NCBI GenBank assembly: GCA_963703295.1
Contig: OY969810.1
Coordinates: 4,210,001-4,274,000 of the forward strand
DNA length: 64,000 nt
Reading direction: 5' to 3'
From: Bryobacterales bacterium
GTDB taxonomy: Bacteria; Acidobacteriota; Terriglobia; Bryobacterales; Bryobacteraceae
A program made the position numbers. Below, piece after piece: positions 1-12,000 of the stretch (position 1 is its first letter; each line of letters begins with the position of its first letter).

Positions 1-3000
1 AGCGCTTCGAGCTTGGCGGTACTCTTTTCGATGGCGCGCTGGATGCGACTGACGTAGAGGGCGAGGCGCTGGAGGCCCTTGGAGGCGTCTATCCAAGCTT
101 GGGCTTGCGCGGCGGCGGCGCTGAGCTGGCCGGACTGCTCCTGCTCGATTTGAGTGAAGAGGGCATTTTCCATGGCGCGGGCGCGCTTCAGGCGCCAACG
201 GTCGGCGGCGATATCTTCGACGAGTTCTTCTTCGATGACGCCGATGGGGGCGAGAGCTTCGCGCATGGCGAGGTAGTGGCGGGCGAAGGGCTCCTGCTCG
301 CCGGGGAGGGCGGCGTGAACGCTGCCGCTCAAGCCGTGACGGAGCGCATTTTGGCTGACGGTTTGTTTGCCGGCCTCGGTGACGGGGCCGGTGGACTTTT
401 GCGCGTTGGCGCGGTTGGTTTCGAAGTTGCGTGGAGCCATCATTAGGTTTCTCCTATGTGAGTGATGTGAAAAGGGGCGGCTTCGCGGTGTTGCTCGCGA
501 GGCTGCCCCGGTTGGAGGGTAGCAGGCGGGGTGGCGGTCTCGCGGGGCGGGGAAGGGCGGGACTGGCGGTAAGCAGTTGAATGAATTGGGTTTTCGGGGG
601 ACGAAAAAAGTTGCGAGTTCGCGTGAACGCAAAAAGTTGCCGGCGCGAATTGGTGGTTTTGGGATGCGGTGATCGGTTGCGGGATCTAGAATGATCTGGA
701 GCCGGCTTTGTTGAAAATGAACTTCTATGTCTGAACTTGCGCTGAAACTGATTGCTGAAAACAGACGTACCCGGGCTACTTTTCTTGACTTGGGGAAGTG
801 CGGGTTGAGTGACGTTCCGGCTGAGGTGGGAGAACTAGTTTGGCTTGAGGGTCTGTCGCTGGGGGACAGATGGGAGGAATGGAACGGCGAAGAGTGGCAG
901 GTTAAGGAGACCCGAAATCGAGGCGCCGAGAATAACCTTGGCGGCCTTGCGCTTGGGCCACTGGCAGGCCTGACGGCGCTGCAAACGCTCAATGTTTCGT
1001 ACACGAAGGTTGCGGATCTTGGGCCGCTGGCAGGCCTGACGGCGCTGCAAACGCTCAATGTTTCGTACACGAAGGTTGCGGATCTTGGGCCGCTGGCAGG
1101 CCTGACGGCGCTGCAAAGGCTCAATGTTTCGTACACGCAGGTTGCGGATCTTGGGCCGCTGGCAGGCCTGACGGCTCTGCAAACGCTCGATGTTTCGTAC
1201 ACGAAGGTTGCGGATCTTGGGCCGCTGGCAGGCATGACGGCACTGCGATGGCTCGATGTTTCGAGTACGCAGATTGCCGATCTTGGGCCGCTGGCAGGCC
1301 TGACGGCACTGCGATGGCTCTCTGTTTCGGGTACGCAGATCGCCGATCTTGAGCCGCTGGCAGCACTGACGGCACTACAAAGGCTCAACGCTCCGGGTAC
1401 GCAGATCGCCGATCTTAGGCCGCTGGCAGGCCTGACGGCTCTGCGAAAGCTCTATGTTGCGAATACGCAAATCGCCGATCTTGGGCCGCTGGCAGGCCTG
1501 ACGGCTCTGGAAAAGCTCTCTGTTCTGGGTACGCAGATCGCCGATCTTGGGCCGCTGGCAGGCCTGACGGCTCTGCGATGGATCGATGTTTCGAATACGC
1601 AGATCGCCGATCTTGGGCCACTGGCAGGCCTGACGGCTCTGCAAAGGCTCGATGTTTCGTATAGCCAGATCGCCGATCTTGGATCGCTGGCAGGCCTGCC
1701 CGTTCTGCAAACGCTCGATGTTTCGGGTACGCACGTTGGCGATCTTTTCCCTTTGATATCGCTAATTCGCGGAGGTCGCCCGGTCTGCTGGAGTTCACGT
1801 TCTTGGGAAGGCAAAGGCATCTACGTCCAACACTGCCCGCTGCGAAATCCGCCGCCGGAGATCGTGAAGCAGGGGAACGATGCCATTCTCAATTACTTCC
1901 ACGAGCGGGAACTAGGGCAGATCGACCATTTGTACGAGGCGAAGATGCTCATTGTCGGGGAAGGCGGAGCGGGTAAGACCAGTTTGCTGCGGCGCCTCTA
2001 TCAACCCGAACAGCCCCTGCCCGGAGAGGATGAGACCACCAAGGGCATCTCGATTTATCGGCACGAGTTCCAGATGAAAAACGGACGGACCTTCCGCCTG
2101 AACGTTTGGGATTTCGGGGGACAGGAGATCTACCATGCGACCCACCAGTTTTTCCTGACTCACCGTTCGCTTTATCTGCTGGTGGACGACACGCGCAAGG
2201 ATTACAAGTCGGTATCGGATCCTGGCTTCCGGAATTGGCTGGAGCTGGTCGAGGTATTTGGCGGACATAGCCCGGTGCTGATTTTTCAGAACGAGAAGGG
2301 CGGGCGCAGCAAGGCGATCGACATCGGCGGCATCAGAGGCCGGTACGACAACGTGAAGGAGCTTTATGCAGGCGATCTTGCGAAGTCCGATGCAGCAGCC
2401 CGGTTGCGCGACGGCATCGAATTCTTTGCAGGCACCCTGAGTCATATCGGCGAGGAGTTGCCAGCCGCCTGGGTTAAGATCCGGGGAGATGTTGAGGCTC
2501 GCGCGGAAGAGACGCCTTACATTCCGCGAGAGGAATATTTTCAAATATACAAGCGGCATCTTGATTTTGACAGGACCAAAGCCCTGCACTTGAGCCGCTA
2601 CCTGCATGACTTGGGCGTCATCCTGCATTTTCAGGACGACGCGTTGCTGGCACACACGGTGATCCTTCAGAACCAATGGGCGACCGAAGCGGTTTTCCGC
2701 ATTTTGGATGACGAAGTTGTGAAGGGGCAGCGCGGCCGATTTACCAAAGCGGACTGCGAGCGTCTGTGGCGCGATTCCGTCTATGCCGACATGCATCCCG
2801 AGTTACTCGCGCTGATGGAGCGCTTCGAGCTTTGTTACTTGCTACGGGACAGCCATCCTCGGGCGTGGCTGGCTCCGCAGTTGCTGCCGCCGGCCAAGCC
2901 GGAAGGACTCACGGGCTGGGGCGCGGCAGGCGATCTGACGCTTCGCTATCGATATGAGTTTCTGCCGCACGGCATGATCAGCCGGTTGACGGTGAGAATG

Positions 3001-9000: not shown

Positions 9001-12000
9001 TCGCCGACTCCGGCTATGAAAACCCTAAATTCTGGGCGGCAGGAGGATTCGGCGAGTGGAAACGGCCGGAAAAATGGGACAACCAGGCGCCCTATTCGAA
9101 CCGGCCTGTGGTGGGCTTGAGCTGGTATGAAGCGCAAGCGTGGTGCCGGTGGGCAGGTTGGGGCGTGAGGCTGCTCTCCGAAGCGGAGTGGGAACGGACT
9201 GCGCGCGGCGAAGCCGGCCGCTTGTTTCCCTGGGGCGATGCGGCGCCGGACTACCGCTTCTTGAATTACGCAAAGAGCACGCAGGAATCCGACGATTCGT
9301 ATAGGCAAAACGTTGAAATCGGGCGGCCGACGCCTGTCGGATTCTATCCTCTGGGACGAACGCCCGAAGGCGTGTTCGACCTGGCGGGGAATGTTTTCGA
9401 ATGGTGTGAAGACGAAGTGACTCCCGGCCGCCGGGCGCTGCGGGGCGGTTGCTATCGCAGTGTGGACCTTTTCGTGCGCGCATCCGCGCGTGGCCATTGT
9501 CCAGCCAACGCGCGCGGCGATTTTATCGGGTTCCGGGCATGCACAATATATGGGCACTACACGTCGCGATCGGGGGCGCAGGATCAGTGAACGAACGCAA
9601 GGTCTACGTAGCCTGCGATCCAGCCGATGCCATGGAAGCAAACGGACTGCTTCGCCACCAGCGCACACTTGAGATTGTCTCGTTTGGAGCCGACCCGGAA
9701 AATTACATGGGCGTGGAGGATGAAGCCCTGATCCTTCGCGGACTCAGGGCGCGGACCTTACAGGACTCCACGGTAACGATCGTGGTTGTCGGACGCTGCA
9801 CCCACAGCCTTAGGTCGGTGGACTGGGAAATTAAGGCATCCCTGTTTCACGAGAGAGGCCAGGCGCCGAATGGCCTGGTTGCGCTGGCTCTCCCCGGCGC
9901 GGGTAGATATGAAGACCTTCCACCGCGTTTGCTGGCGAATGTCGGGGAGGATAACAGCAGGTACGCCGCATTCTGGACATTCACGCGCGACGCCGCGGCT
10001 TGGGACCGGGTGATCGAGGAGGCTTTCGTGGCCCGGGTCAGCCGCGTGGAGGCGATTCGGAACACGGATCCTTTGATGCGGGCCAATGCCCGATGCCGGA
10101 GCTGCGGCGTGGTGCATGACCGCTAGTCCGGTAACTCCCGTCGCGGCGTTGTCCCAAAGAAGGGAATATAGTAAAAGGTCGTCGCAGCGGGAGGGCATTG
10201 TCGTCGATGTCGCGTAAGACTGTACGAGCTTCTGCCTGGGTAGCGCTCGCGCTGCTACTTCCCGCGCTTGCCAGTGGAGCCTTGTGGGTGCACTCTCGAC
10301 GCCTGCCTGCCTCCCGCACCCCGGCTATCGCTTTCATTCCGCAGACTGTGGCCGCGTCCATGCTTTGGGAAACGGAACAGTCCGGCGCTTCGGCGGCTGC
10401 CGCAAAGCTGAAGTTTCACCTCTATTGGAATGCGCCGACCTCGGAAAACGATATAGCCGGCCAAGCGTCGCTAATCGATCGAGTGACTCGCGGAAAATAC
10501 CAGGGGCTGGTCCTCGCGCCGAATCACGCGCTTGCCACCCTTACGCCTCTGCGCCGTGCGCTGGCGGCTAGCCTTCCGGTGGTGGTGGTCGCGGCGCAAC
10601 TGGATCTCCCCGCGGGCGGCAAACTGGCCTATATCGTAAATGACGATGAAACAATGGGCGAGCTTGCCGCAACGGAGATCGCCAAGCTGATTCACGGCAA
10701 AGGCTCCATTGCCCTGGTTGGTCTCTCGCGCTATGCGCCGGGCGTGGCGCGCAGGGTTCGCGGTGCGGAATCTCTACTGGCGGGTCGCTATCCCGATATC
10801 CACGTGGTGAGCCGCATCAGCGGAACATACGAGAGTTCGGTCGCGGAAGATCTCACTAACGGTATTCTGGCGGCGCATCCCGACCTGAAGGCCATTTTGA
10901 GTTTTACGGCGGTCTCCACGCGGGGAGTCCACGCAGCTCTCAAGGGCCGGTCGCAGCTACAGGCGATCCGCCTGGTGGGATGTGAGCAGGACACTGACTT
11001 GATCGGCTATGTCAGAACCGGAGAAATCGCCGCCATTCTGGCGGAGAACACCTATCGCATGGGGTACGAGGCCGTCGGCCTGATTGCGGAATCGCTCGCG
11101 GGAAGGTCTTTGCCGGCCCGTTCGGTCGTACCACCTCTGGTGATCGACAAACAGAATCTCGACTCTTCCGAAGCGCGTCTGTTTACGAGCTTGTCAAGGT
11201 GACACGTTTATGAAACGTCCGACGAATCGGAAGTCTCGGCGCAAGCCGATTGTCACTATGGCGGCCGTGCTTCTGGTGGCGTCGGCAATGGCCGGCGGGA
11301 TGCACTGGTATCGCGCCCGCCCCGGTTATGGCCTGCCATATTACGCGCAGTTCACGCCAGACGTCGAGGATCGTTGGACCGCTCTGGGCGGCGCCTGGGA
11401 AGTGGTGGAGGGCTCCATGCGGAACGATTCCAACGATCGCGGCGCAAAACTTCTGACGGGCTCGCACAACTGGAAAGACTACACCGTGGAAGGAGATGTG
11501 CAGCTCCTGGGCGCAGGTAGCGTGGGATTTCTGGCGCGGGTAAGTGACGCCGAACTGGGCGAGAATTCCTATAAAGGGTATTTCGCCGGCGTCCGAACCG
11601 CAGACAACAGCTTAGTAATTGGGTCTTACGACTTTGCCTATCACGAAGTTACTAAGGCGCCGCTGCCTGATCCCGTTCGTCCTTTCCGCTGGTATCACGT
11701 CAAAGTGACAGCCAACGGCTGCACGATCACGGCCAGCGTCCGGGCGGCCGGACTACCCGAGCTCAAGACGGCGCCGGTCGACGACCCGGATTGTTATCGG
11801 TCGGGCGAGATCGGCCTCCGGTCGAACGGCACGGGCGGTGTTTGGCGGAATGTCGCAGTGACTCCTGCCGGTTCGCGCGAGGCAGCGTCGGACCCTGCCG
11901 TGCTTAGTCTGTCATTACCAAATCCATTGCCGCTCCAGTTGCTGGCCGGGATGCCGCGCAGGAACGAACCACTGGCGGGCGAAGAATCGCCGTCGTCGTC

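What a model noticed while it worked through the whole genome (the two positions that open the first line are those of the whole stretch)
727..10126. Tandem T6SS sheath fusion embedded in a Roco-NLR-TIR operon
An 895-aa protein with two degenerate TssB-TssC sheath units lies in one operon between an LRR-Roc-COR GTPase, a DUF4062-NACHT-FGE NLR-like protein and a TIR protein, far from any T6SS cluster. Reading: sheath domains were co-opted as a polymerising scaffold or as a decoy for phage tail parts in a bacterial immune pathway. New if true: a contractile-sheath fold reused in innate immunity.
Evidence so far: Domains in calls 24, 27. Only 3 full-length homologs (48% identity, call 44); two lie on contigs of the same lengths (85844, 91153) as the two closest orthologs of the NLR (76%, 74%; call 105), so the pairing recurs. 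No other T6SS gene in the operon.
(Added by a program. Inside this text positions count along the whole contig: contig position 4,210,001 is position 1 of the stretch shown here. "Call 12" and the like, gene names such as g00115 and contig names such as C1 are that model's own, and its searches are not shown. The text may have been shortened before it was handed on; [...] marks where a part breaks off. The agent that wrote the report below was given it as the finding of a first reader that could run no searches.)

Follow-up and report, generated by a model that had tools for sequence, protein, structure and literature searches.

The report
T6SS-sheath bait paired with bacterial NLR
A bacterial NLR-type immune receptor gene sits next to, and evolves in step with, a doubled and trimmed copy of the type VI secretion sheath; the sheath copy is predicted to bind the receptor's sensor domain and likely serves as bait that would trigger an abortive anti-invader response.

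Summary
The four-gene operon is real: LRR-Roc-COR-TIR, an 895-aa tandem TssB-TssC protein, a DUF4062(TIR)-NACHT-FGE NLR and a ThsB-like TIR, over 1 Mb from the genome's two T6SS clusters. The sheath protein is not a decaying one-off: it has at least 16 full-length homologs (23-49% identity).

The recurring unit is sheath plus NLR. Seven of the NLR's ten closest orthologs share contig length and source with a sheath homolog, against 0 of the next 109. Divergences mirror each other, and a broken locus in another genus shows the same gene order in DNA.

The NLR's ligand-binding loop, hypervariable in outer relatives, is frozen in this clade. A complex prediction docks it on a family-specific helix of sheath unit 2 (score 0.78, best control 0.02).

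A polymerising scaffold is unlikely: unit 2 lacks the inner domain and the ClpV tag is gone. Best reading: a sheath-derived bait or guardee bound to the NLR. Its trigger and defence role are untested; three homologs lack an adjacent NLR; conservation of the Roco and TIR genes is not shown. Other single-chain sheaths also sit beside WD40-NLRs and in MoxR-vWA conflict systems.

The parts
727..3897 (+). LRR-Roc-COR (Roco) GTPase, 1056 aa, with a C-terminal DUF4062-like TIR domain (aa about 899-1056); membership of the conserved module not shown
   Evidence: Pfam; G-box motifs located; C-terminal domain; its 90% cluster holds only this protein; not found with this query in 5 genus genomes
3926..6613 (+). 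Tandem single-chain TssB-TssC sheath protein, 895 aa
   Evidence: AlphaFold2 with a 14-row alignment, pLDDT 77, pTM 0.76
3926..5185 (+). Unit 1 (aa 1-420): TssB core (about 32-115) joined to TssC about 80-475; outer Domain 3 deleted, TssB N-arm absent, inner gp25-like Domain 1 present but degenerate; its core (aa 100-260) is the best-conserved part; inferred bait surface
   Evidence: hhalign probability 100 against TssC and 99.4 against TssB; VIA Z 27.9, rmsd 2.9, 303 aligned against 9n4v_A; conservation by region
5264..6610 (+). Unit 2 (aa 447-895): TssB 37-167 plus TssC from residue 16 with Domain 3, a degenerate core and no Domain 1; no ClpV motif
   Evidence: hhalign 98.8 against TssB, 97.8 against TssC 16-291, 98.9 unit 1 against unit 2; ClpV-type motif in 0 of 17 family rows against 50 of 60 canonical TssC
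5624..5728 (+). aa 567-601: TssB2 C-terminal helix with a family-specific PGG-type motif and linker; predicted NLR-binding site
   Evidence: interface; pair identity 0.29 against 0.22 background, 432 of 10000 random column sets as high; motif in 8 of 17 family rows and 0 of 60 canonical TssB
6618..9590 (+). DUF4062(TIR)-NACHT-helical-FGE (C-type-lectin-fold) STAND/NLR protein, 990 aa; TIR Glu85 and Walker A/B residues invariant in 30 of 30 aligned homologs
9450..9527 (+). FGE variable-region equivalent (aa 945-970), frozen as SVxLFV in the sheath-linked clade; predicted sheath-binding loop
   Evidence: identity 0.62 against 0.58 for the rest of FGE in the clade; 0.32 against 0.62 in outer homologs; no template-repeat copy found in the genome; interface
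9587..10126 (+). Thoeris ThsB-like TIR protein, 179 aa, start overlapping the NLR stop; putative catalytic Glu in the WEI motif
   Evidence: Pfam PF08937 E 7e-8; GTGA overlap; strain copies on contigs of the same lengths as sheath and NLR copies

Best explanation
The tandem TssB-TssC protein is a trimmed T6SS-sheath derivative that travels and co-evolves with one clade of TIR-NACHT-FGE NLRs; it is predicted to bind the NLR's sensor domain and likely acts as a dedicated bait (decoy or guardee) whose engagement by an invader protein would switch on the NLR's TIR domain and an abortive response. Steps. (1) Shown: operon, anatomy, clade-level linkage and mirrored divergence. (2) Predicted: the FGE ligand loop, frozen in this clade, grips the PGG helix of unit 2, a surface that canonical TssB lacks, so the host's own sheaths would likely be ignored. 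(3) Inferred: unit 1 keeps a sheath-like surface but cannot extend a lattice, so it would capture proteins that dock on contractile sheaths, most likely phage tail-assembly proteins (tube, sheath, terminator) made during infection. (4) Inferred from STAND biology (recalled): capture would move or release the bound helix, the NACHT would oligomerise, and the clustered TIRs (Glu85 invariant) would cleave NAD+ or make a nucleotide signal. The ThsB-like TIR and the Roco-TIR are probably accessory. My odds: linkage 0.95, direct binding about 0.75, defence role about 0.7, bait mechanism about 0.5; the identity of the trigger is the weakest step.
For: Three of these contigs leave only 0.8-2.7 kb spare, so the genes are near-adjacent. 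These NLRs form one clade (12 rows, support 100 on NACHT/helical domains alone). Pairwise identities mirror each other: r 0.94, 12 of 40320 permutations for 8 pairs; r 0.87, 5 of 720 after dropping close kin. G1054:C2, another genus, has sheath unit 1 running directly into the helical-FGE half of a clade NLR. The FGE loop is frozen in the clade. Complex prediction: score 0.78, best of 3 controls 0.02; the mark was reached by 116 of 157 solved and 2 of 215 mismatched pairs (counts only rough with my own alignments); runs agree in at least 98% of contacts, partner pLDDT at least 88; the interface is the frozen loop on the family-specific helix. The sheath protein evolves faster than the NLR: 30 of 895 against 10 of 990 changes between strains, p 6e-4; mean identity 0.29 against 0.60. 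That fits bait under pressure. FGE-sensor STANDs appear in a survey of defence-associated STANDs, which names tail sheath as a possible, untested target (PMC13581612, passages).
Against: Three family genes with DNA in hand have no adjacent NLR, TIR or Roco: G712:C58 (contig ends 280 bp upstream), G978:C11 and the truncated G757:C121. G978 has no ortholog of this NLR at all (best piece E 3e-20; 90% complete). The one locus showing adjacency in DNA is broken (three frameshifts and a deletion); the other seven links rest on contig lengths. Eight full-length homologs looked up (P0031, P0034, P0035, P0039, P0041, P0042, P0046, P0036) match no listed NLR contig. The rank correlation of the mirror test is modest (Spearman 0.54). 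The loop is also fairly fixed in 8 sister NLRs with no sheath link seen (0.50 against 0.55). Conservation of the sheath-side interface is only marginally above background (p about 0.04). Fast evolution fits relaxed selection equally well. There is no PADLOC hit for the sheath or ThsB-like protein, and only short P-loop hits for the NLR. No defence activity, trigger or expression was tested.
Confidence: 0.5

Rival explanations
1. Plain inhibitor or antitoxin subunit: the sheath protein binds the NLR only to hold it off or stabilise it; the sheath-like surface senses nothing and activation comes from loss of the partner or another signal.
For: The same binding prediction and linkage. Orphan sheath genes without an NLR are tolerated. 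In G1054 the predicted binding site and the TIR-NACHT were lost together.
Against: The best-conserved part is the unit-1 core (0.40), which is not in the predicted interface; a pure inhibitor would not need 895 aa of sheath fold.
Confidence: 0.17
2. T6SS surveillance or regulation: the pair monitors the host's own T6SS (TssA, Hcp, sheath ends) or incoming T6SS parts rather than phage, for example by capping sheaths and coupling that state to cell death.
For: Unit 1 is closest to this family's own TssC (43-46%). G000, G712 and G978 all encode Hcp. Unit 1 keeps a Domain-1 fold that could accept arms of growing sheaths.
Against: Never beside T6SS genes (0 of 11 loci). T6SS sheaths are common in the family anyway (253 of 401 genomes). 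The ClpV motif is absent in 17 of 17. Domain 1 is the least conserved part of unit 1 and partly deleted in two members.
Confidence: 0.13
3. Polymerising scaffold: the protein forms sheath-like rings or filaments that cluster NLR and TIR domains as a signalosome.
For: Unit 1 keeps the single-chain contractile-sheath fold. Other single-chain sheaths with an intact gp25 domain sit beside WD40-NLRs or in the effector slot of vWA proteins, a slot rich in superstructure-forming domains (PMC7159879, passages).
Against: Unit 2 has no Domain 1; both units lack the TssB N-terminal arm; Domain 1 of unit 1 has only 0.20 identity and loses its strands in P0311 and P0312; PF18945 is absent in all 13 full-length homologs scanned from alignment A1. 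The lattice needs these parts (recalled from the VipA/VipB cryo-EM structure).
Confidence: 0.12
4. Decaying or hitch-hiking fusion: a shuffled T6SS remnant carried along in a conflict island, with no function.
For: Rare and patchy; fast-evolving; truncated or broken copies exist (G757, G1054).
Against: At least 16 open full-length homologs at 23-49% identity keep the two-unit layout and family-specific motifs. They form one clade (100/99), mirror their NLR and fold confidently.
Confidence: 0.08

Closest known systems
T6SS contractile sheath TssB/TssC (VipA/VipB; PDB 9n4v, 5mxn, 5n8n, 5urw, 3j9g)
   Same: Clear sequence and fold homology; unit 1 core 43-46% identical to the family's own TssC.
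   Different: One chain with two unequal units; Domain 3 deleted in unit 1, Domain 1 absent in unit 2; no TssB N-arm, no ClpV motif; below NCBIfam cut-offs; far from T6SS genes; linked to an NLR.
Bacterial STAND/NLR pattern-recognition receptors (Avs, bNACHT; FGE-sensor STANDs of PMC13581612)
   Same: Effector (TIR)-NACHT-sensor layout with intact catalytic residues; FGE-like sensors are listed among those STANDs (passages).
   Different: The Avs receptors described there sense phage proteins directly (recalled; listing and passages only). Here the sensor is predicted to bind a co-encoded host protein derived from a secretion machine.
Guard/decoy NLR pairs: bNACHT25-DnaJ (PMC12169576, search listing only); plant ZAR1-RKS1-PBL2 and Prf-Pto (recalled)
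   Same: An NLR senses indirectly through a host protein.
   Different: DnaJ is a housekeeping chaperone; this partner is dedicated, co-encoded, co-evolving and has lost parts needed for its ancestral job, as plant decoys have.
MoxR-vWA ternary conflict systems (Kaur et al. 2020, PMC7159879)
   Same: Same domain pool (TIR, STAND, FGS, Roc-COR GTPase). Single-chain sheaths occupy the vWA effector slot in G627:C753 and at least 14 database proteins.
   Different: The window has no MoxR or vWA gene. The paper's text has no 'sheath' or 'T6SS', and the 2 supplementary files held have no relevant hit.
DGR target proteins with a C-type-lectin (FGE) fold
   Same: Same domain and same ligand-binding loop, hypervariable in outer homologs.
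   Different: The loop is frozen in this clade; no template repeat was found in the genome; the single reverse transcriptase lies about 340 kb away.
Thoeris (ThsB TIR plus ThsA)
   Same: A ThsB-like TIR with the WEI motif.
   Different: No ThsA-type effector among the four operon genes and no PADLOC Thoeris hit.

Membership tests
T6SS sheath TssB/TssC | Homology and fold of TssB and TssC | tested here: met
   (Z 27.9, rmsd 2.9, 303 aligned, unit 1)
T6SS sheath TssB/TssC | Every protomer has the gp25-like Domain 1 and both handshake arms | tested here: not met
   unit 2 aligns to TssC only up to its core; both TssB parts start near residue 32-37; no PF18945; unit 2 was barely tested by the fold search, so this rests on sequence profiles
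T6SS sheath TssB/TssC | ClpV-recognition motif in the TssC N-terminal helix (motif recalled) | tested here: not met
   0 of 17 against 50 of 60 canonical
T6SS sheath TssB/TssC | Encoded with hcp, vgrG, baseplate and clpV genes | tested here: not met
   none within 100 kb; 0 of 11 homolog loci
T6SS sheath TssB/TssC | Polymerises and contracts | not testable with these tools
   needs EM
Bacterial STAND/NLR immune receptor | Effector-NACHT-sensor architecture with intact Walker A/B | tested here: met
   (K269, D372, D375, E376 in 30 of 30)
Bacterial STAND/NLR immune receptor | TIR effector with catalytic glutamate | tested here: met
   E85 in 30 of 30; its catalytic role is inferred from TIR family knowledge (recalled)
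Bacterial STAND/NLR immune receptor | Anti-phage activity on ligand-induced oligomerisation | not testable with these tools
   needs a plaque assay
NLR-decoy/guardee pair | Genetic linkage and co-evolution of receptor and partner | tested here: met
   7 of 10 against 0 of 109; mirror test; G1054; three unlinked copies exist
NLR-decoy/guardee pair | Partner binds the sensor domain | tested here: inconclusive
   the prediction supports binding (0.78 against 0.02) but does not show it
NLR-decoy/guardee pair | Partner is targeted by an invader protein, which activates the NLR | not testable with these tools
   trigger unknown
DGR target | Variable region with a template repeat and a cognate RT | tested here: not met
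Thoeris | ThsB TIR paired with a ThsA effector | tested here: not met
   a ThsB-like TIR only
MoxR-vWA ternary system | MoxR ATPase, vWA protein and VMAP/iSTAND genes together | tested here: not met
   none among the operon genes; met for the separate locus G627:C753

The most novel reading that the evidence does not exclude
Bacteria have repeatedly turned the T6SS contractile sheath into an immune module. Here it is a dedicated, co-evolving decoy that an NLR clamps with a formerly hypervariable lectin-fold site and that reports phage tail assembly. In parallel lineages, single-chain sheaths serve WD40-NLRs, TIR proteins and MoxR-vWA systems. This would be a plant-style paired-decoy receptor in bacteria, built from a weapon that itself descends from phage tails.
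Probability: 0.4. Interest if true: 0.92.

Novelty: new variant of a known kind. Interest (0 to 1): 0.8.

Why it matters
Most characterised bacterial NLRs bind phage proteins directly, and the natural ligands of FGE-type sensors were not named in the passages I read. This locus offers a concrete, testable ligand and interface for such a sensor, and a candidate for indirect (decoy) sensing in bacteria by a dedicated partner. It would also show a contractile-injection structural protein reused outside injection, and it flags many 'orphan tssC' annotations as possible defence genes. Eight paper searches found no description; the library lacks most subscription journals.

Tried and rejected
Homolog and context searches that gave nothing usable:
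- The word-index search with the whole sheath protein found only itself; a regional search found 2 more.
- The search for related loci with the single protein found no relative in metagenomes. Nothing was confirmed in viral contigs. No plasmid record covers 80% of the query.
- The contigs of the seven length-matched pairs could not be fetched, so their other neighbours (Roco, TIR) are unknown.

Structure and atlas: single-sequence AlphaFold failed (pLDDT 35). The ESM Atlas returned only VipA/VipB clusters.

Expression and strain variation: no RNA holder was listed. Contigs laid on the window were too fragmentary for dN/dS. The promoter and terminator scans were at chance level.

Synteny and origin: the Roco and the downstream kinase were not found with these queries in 5 genus genomes, so synteny was not tested. 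GC and GC3 of the operon (0.58-0.62; 0.66-0.74) give no clear sign of recent transfer.

Rejected readings: DGR target; Thoeris membership; descent from the genome's 440-aa orphan fusion (no tblastn hit of the sheath protein there at E 1e-5, but 44% to canonical TssC); an apparent N-terminal extension on the G471 fusion (a shadow ORF).

Not tested: NLR TIR or NACHT binding to the sheath, sheath self-assembly and sheath-Hcp binding (only one complex job); the loop sequence of G712's own 46% NLR.

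
Full report
OBSERVATION. The window starts with four co-oriented, tightly packed genes: an LRR-Roc-COR GTPase (727-3897) ending in a TIR-like domain; an 895-aa protein with two VipA and two VipB matches (3926-6613); a DUF4062(TIR)-NACHT-FGE protein (6618-9590); and a ThsB-like TIR (9587-10126). 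The genome (8.76 Mb, one contig) has two T6SS clusters near 2.39 and 3.02 Mb and a 440-aa orphan TssB-TssC fusion at 8.55 Mb. None of 12 T6SS core queries hits within 100 kb of the operon. The host is probably an acidobacterium (inference from the titles of the closest canonical TssC loci).

ANATOMY. Profile comparison with 60 canonical TssB and 60 TssC, sampled from 152 and 153 in fetched loci, and an AlphaFold2 model (pLDDT 77, pTM 0.76) show two unequal units. Unit 1 (aa 1-420) joins the TssB core to TssC about 80-475. It deletes the outer Domain 3 and keeps a degenerate inner gp25-like domain (VIA Z 27.9, rmsd 2.9, 303 aligned against 9n4v_A; whole single-chain phage and eCIS sheaths follow at Z 13-21). 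Unit 2 (aa 447-895) has TssB 37-167, TssC with Domain 3, a degenerate core and no inner domain; this rests on profiles, since the fold search barely tested it. Both units lack the TssB N-terminal arm. A ClpV-type motif (recalled) is found in 50 of 60 canonical TssC and 0 of 17 family rows. Mean identity by region is 0.40 for the unit-1 core and 0.20 for its inner domain. The sheath lattice needs the inner domain and arms in every protomer (recalled), so ordinary polymerisation is unlikely.

FAMILY. phmmer over 1.84 billion representatives gave 2835 hits, the best 150 listed. Together, I aligned 16 full-length homologs at 23-49% identity. A tree of the unit-1 core puts 22 of 34 rows in one clade (100/99), apart from canonical TssC and from less degenerate tandem forms; P0041, used in alignment A1, falls outside it. 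The gene is rare: 0 of 60 relatives, 1 of 400 family genomes, 1 more among 400 order genomes, 0 of 400 phylum genomes (only 2 candidates per genome were scored in the large searches). Genus searches added two partial members among 4 and 111 genomes. A strain copy differs at 30 of 895 residues, against 10 of 990 in the NLR (p 6e-4).

LINK TO THE NLR. The NLR has 1456 listed relatives, the best 120 shown. I looked up contig lengths for 21 sheath homologs. Seven of the ten closest non-self NLRs match one in length and source: P0192/P0025, P0193/P0027, P0195/P0029, P0196/P0030, P0198/P0044, P0199/P0028 and P0201/P0033. None of the next 109 does (compared by eye; p 2e-9). The unmatched three lie on contigs of 3.6-6.2 kb. 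Three matched contigs have under 2.7 kb spare. These NLRs form one clade even on NACHT and helical domains alone, and pairwise identities mirror those of the sheaths (r 0.94, 12 of 40320; 0.87, 5 of 720 without close kin; Spearman 0.54). Direct DNA: in G1054:C2, another genus, unit 1 runs into the helical-FGE half of a clade NLR (49-59% identity). An internal deletion has removed unit 2, the TIR and the NACHT, and there are three frameshifts. Against universality: G712:C58, G978:C11 and the truncated G757:C121 have no NLR beside them, and the two full-length ones have lost strands of the inner domain. Whether Roco and TIR belong to the conserved unit is open: strain assemblies share sheath, NLR and TIR, while the Roco cluster holds only this copy.

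A FROZEN LIGAND SITE AND A PREDICTED INTERFACE. The FGE (C-type-lectin) fold binds ligands with a C-terminal loop that DGRs diversify (PMC7159879, passages). In 18 outer homologs this loop is hypervariable (identity 0.32 against 0.62 for the rest of the domain; 3 rows dropped as truncated). In the 12 clade members it is fixed as SVxLFV (0.62 against 0.58); 8 sister proteins are intermediate (0.50 against 0.55). No template repeat was found in the genome. I folded sheath aa 1-700 with FGE aa 715-980: score 0.78 (0.71, 0.80, 0.78), best of 3 controls 0.02. The mark was reached by 116 of 157 solved and 2 of 215 mismatched pairs (rough with my own alignments); runs agree in at least 98% of contacts; partner pLDDT is at least 88. 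The interface is the frozen loop (947-952, 959-967) plus 752-767 on sheath residues 567-601, the C-terminal TssB helix of unit 2. That helix carries a motif seen in 8 of 17 family rows and 0 of 60 canonical TssB (pattern chosen after seeing the alignment), and is slightly more conserved than the rest of unit 2 (0.29 against 0.22; 432 of 10000). I know of no solved FGE-sheath complex the model could recall (recalled, not searched). The model supports binding; it does not show it.

WIDER PATTERN. Other single-chain sheaths, with an intact inner domain, also occur in conflict settings. Of the 150 phmmer hits I scanned 67 by Pfam (chosen for rank or length) and some by NCBIfam. Fusions were seen to vWA components of MoxR systems (at least 14), TIR (6), kinases (3), WD40, TPR and FGE. 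With DNA in hand, 6 such genes lie outside T6SS clusters. Two follow a WD40-type NLR or its fragment directly (G697 TIR-NB-ARC-WD40, 19 bp; G1043, overlapping; both partners about 60% identical between genera). One ends a TIR-MoxR-vWA operon (G627). Three have no clear conflict neighbour (G471, G667, G772).

MECHANISM. Shown: operon, anatomy, linkage, mirrored divergence. Predicted: binding through unit 2. Inferred: unit 1 is a non-extending sheath mimic that captures sheath-docking invader proteins, most plausibly phage tail-assembly proteins; this moves the clamped helix, the NACHT oligomerises, and the TIRs (Glu85 and Walker motifs invariant in 30 of 30) deplete NAD+ or signal. Confidence 0.5. 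Rivals: plain inhibitor 0.17, T6SS surveillance 0.13, polymer scaffold 0.12, decaying remnant 0.08.

KNOWN SYSTEMS AND NOVELTY. The protein works like an NLR decoy and is not a T6SS sheath member; the locus is not Thoeris, a DGR target or a MoxR ternary system. PMC13581612 (4 passages) lists FGE-sensor STANDs and names tail sheath as an untested target. PMC7159879 (passages and 2 supplementary files held) has no sheath; other source data may not be held. PMC13584744 (12 of 14 passages) showed no fused sheath among T6SS accessory factors. PMC13236601 (abstract) is a precedent for an NLR-like system tied to a domesticated phage-like machine. PMC12169576 and 10.1101/2022.07.19.500537 were seen as search listings only. 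Searches found no description of the pairing. Earlier scan notes (unchecked) describe single-chain sheath paralogues, mostly beside T6SS clusters; none is NLR-linked. Verdict: a real, conserved sheath-NLR pair, a new variant of the NLR guard/decoy kind; interest 0.8.

Noticed in passing
G000:C1:8553822-8555147 (L006:11823-13145, - strand): Orphan single-unit TssB-TssC fusion, 440 aa, lacking the gp25-like domain, between an ECF sigma/anti-sigma pair near dnaB and an FAH-family hydrolase; similar 450-480-aa frames appear in many family genomes.
   Followed up: partly
L208:5559-11144 (G697:C3) and L239:3758-7001 (G1043:C240): TIR-NB-ARC-WD40 NLR (a WD40 fragment at a contig end in G1043) directly followed by a 538-aa single-chain sheath without Domain 3 but with an intact gp25 domain; conserved across two genera at about 60% identity. 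A second, independent sheath-NLR pairing.
   Followed up: partly
L224:482-6100 (G627:C753); proteins P0026, P0141, P0115, P0083, P0133, P0165, P0173 and others: Single-chain TssB-TssC in the C-terminal effector slot of vWA proteins of MoxR ternary systems; not mentioned in the text of PMC7159879.
   Followed up: partly
P0091, P0112, P0123, P0132, P0134, P0143, P0154, P0057, P0038, P0049: Sheath fusions to TIR, WD40, kinase, TPR, TssA and TssK parts, and a three-unit tandem sheath. P0057 is a kinase fused to unit 1 of this family.
   Followed up: no
L238:9515-12030 (G1054:C2): Deleted and frameshifted sheath-NLR locus joining unit 1 to the helical-FGE half of the NLR; a pseudogene, assembly errors or a natural sheath-FGE fusion.
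   Followed up: partly
G000:C1 about 1.952-1.954 Mb: A separate tssM-tssL-tssK group about 440 kb from the first T6SS cluster, which lacks its own tssL/tssM hits; an FGE-domain gene lies about 5 kb away.
   Followed up: no
P0211-P0231 (outer DUF4062-NACHT-FGE homologs): A hypervariable, DGR-like C-terminal loop in a large NLR family (1456 hits); DGR-diversified NLR sensors are plausible there.
   Followed up: partly
window about 960-1750: Eleven near-identical 22-aa LRR units in the Roco gene, prone to expansion and to breaking short-read assemblies.
   Followed up: no
window, sheath protein aa 260-301 (about 4703-4828): Nine of the 30 strain differences cluster here, mostly in low-confidence loops of unit 1.
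   Followed up: no
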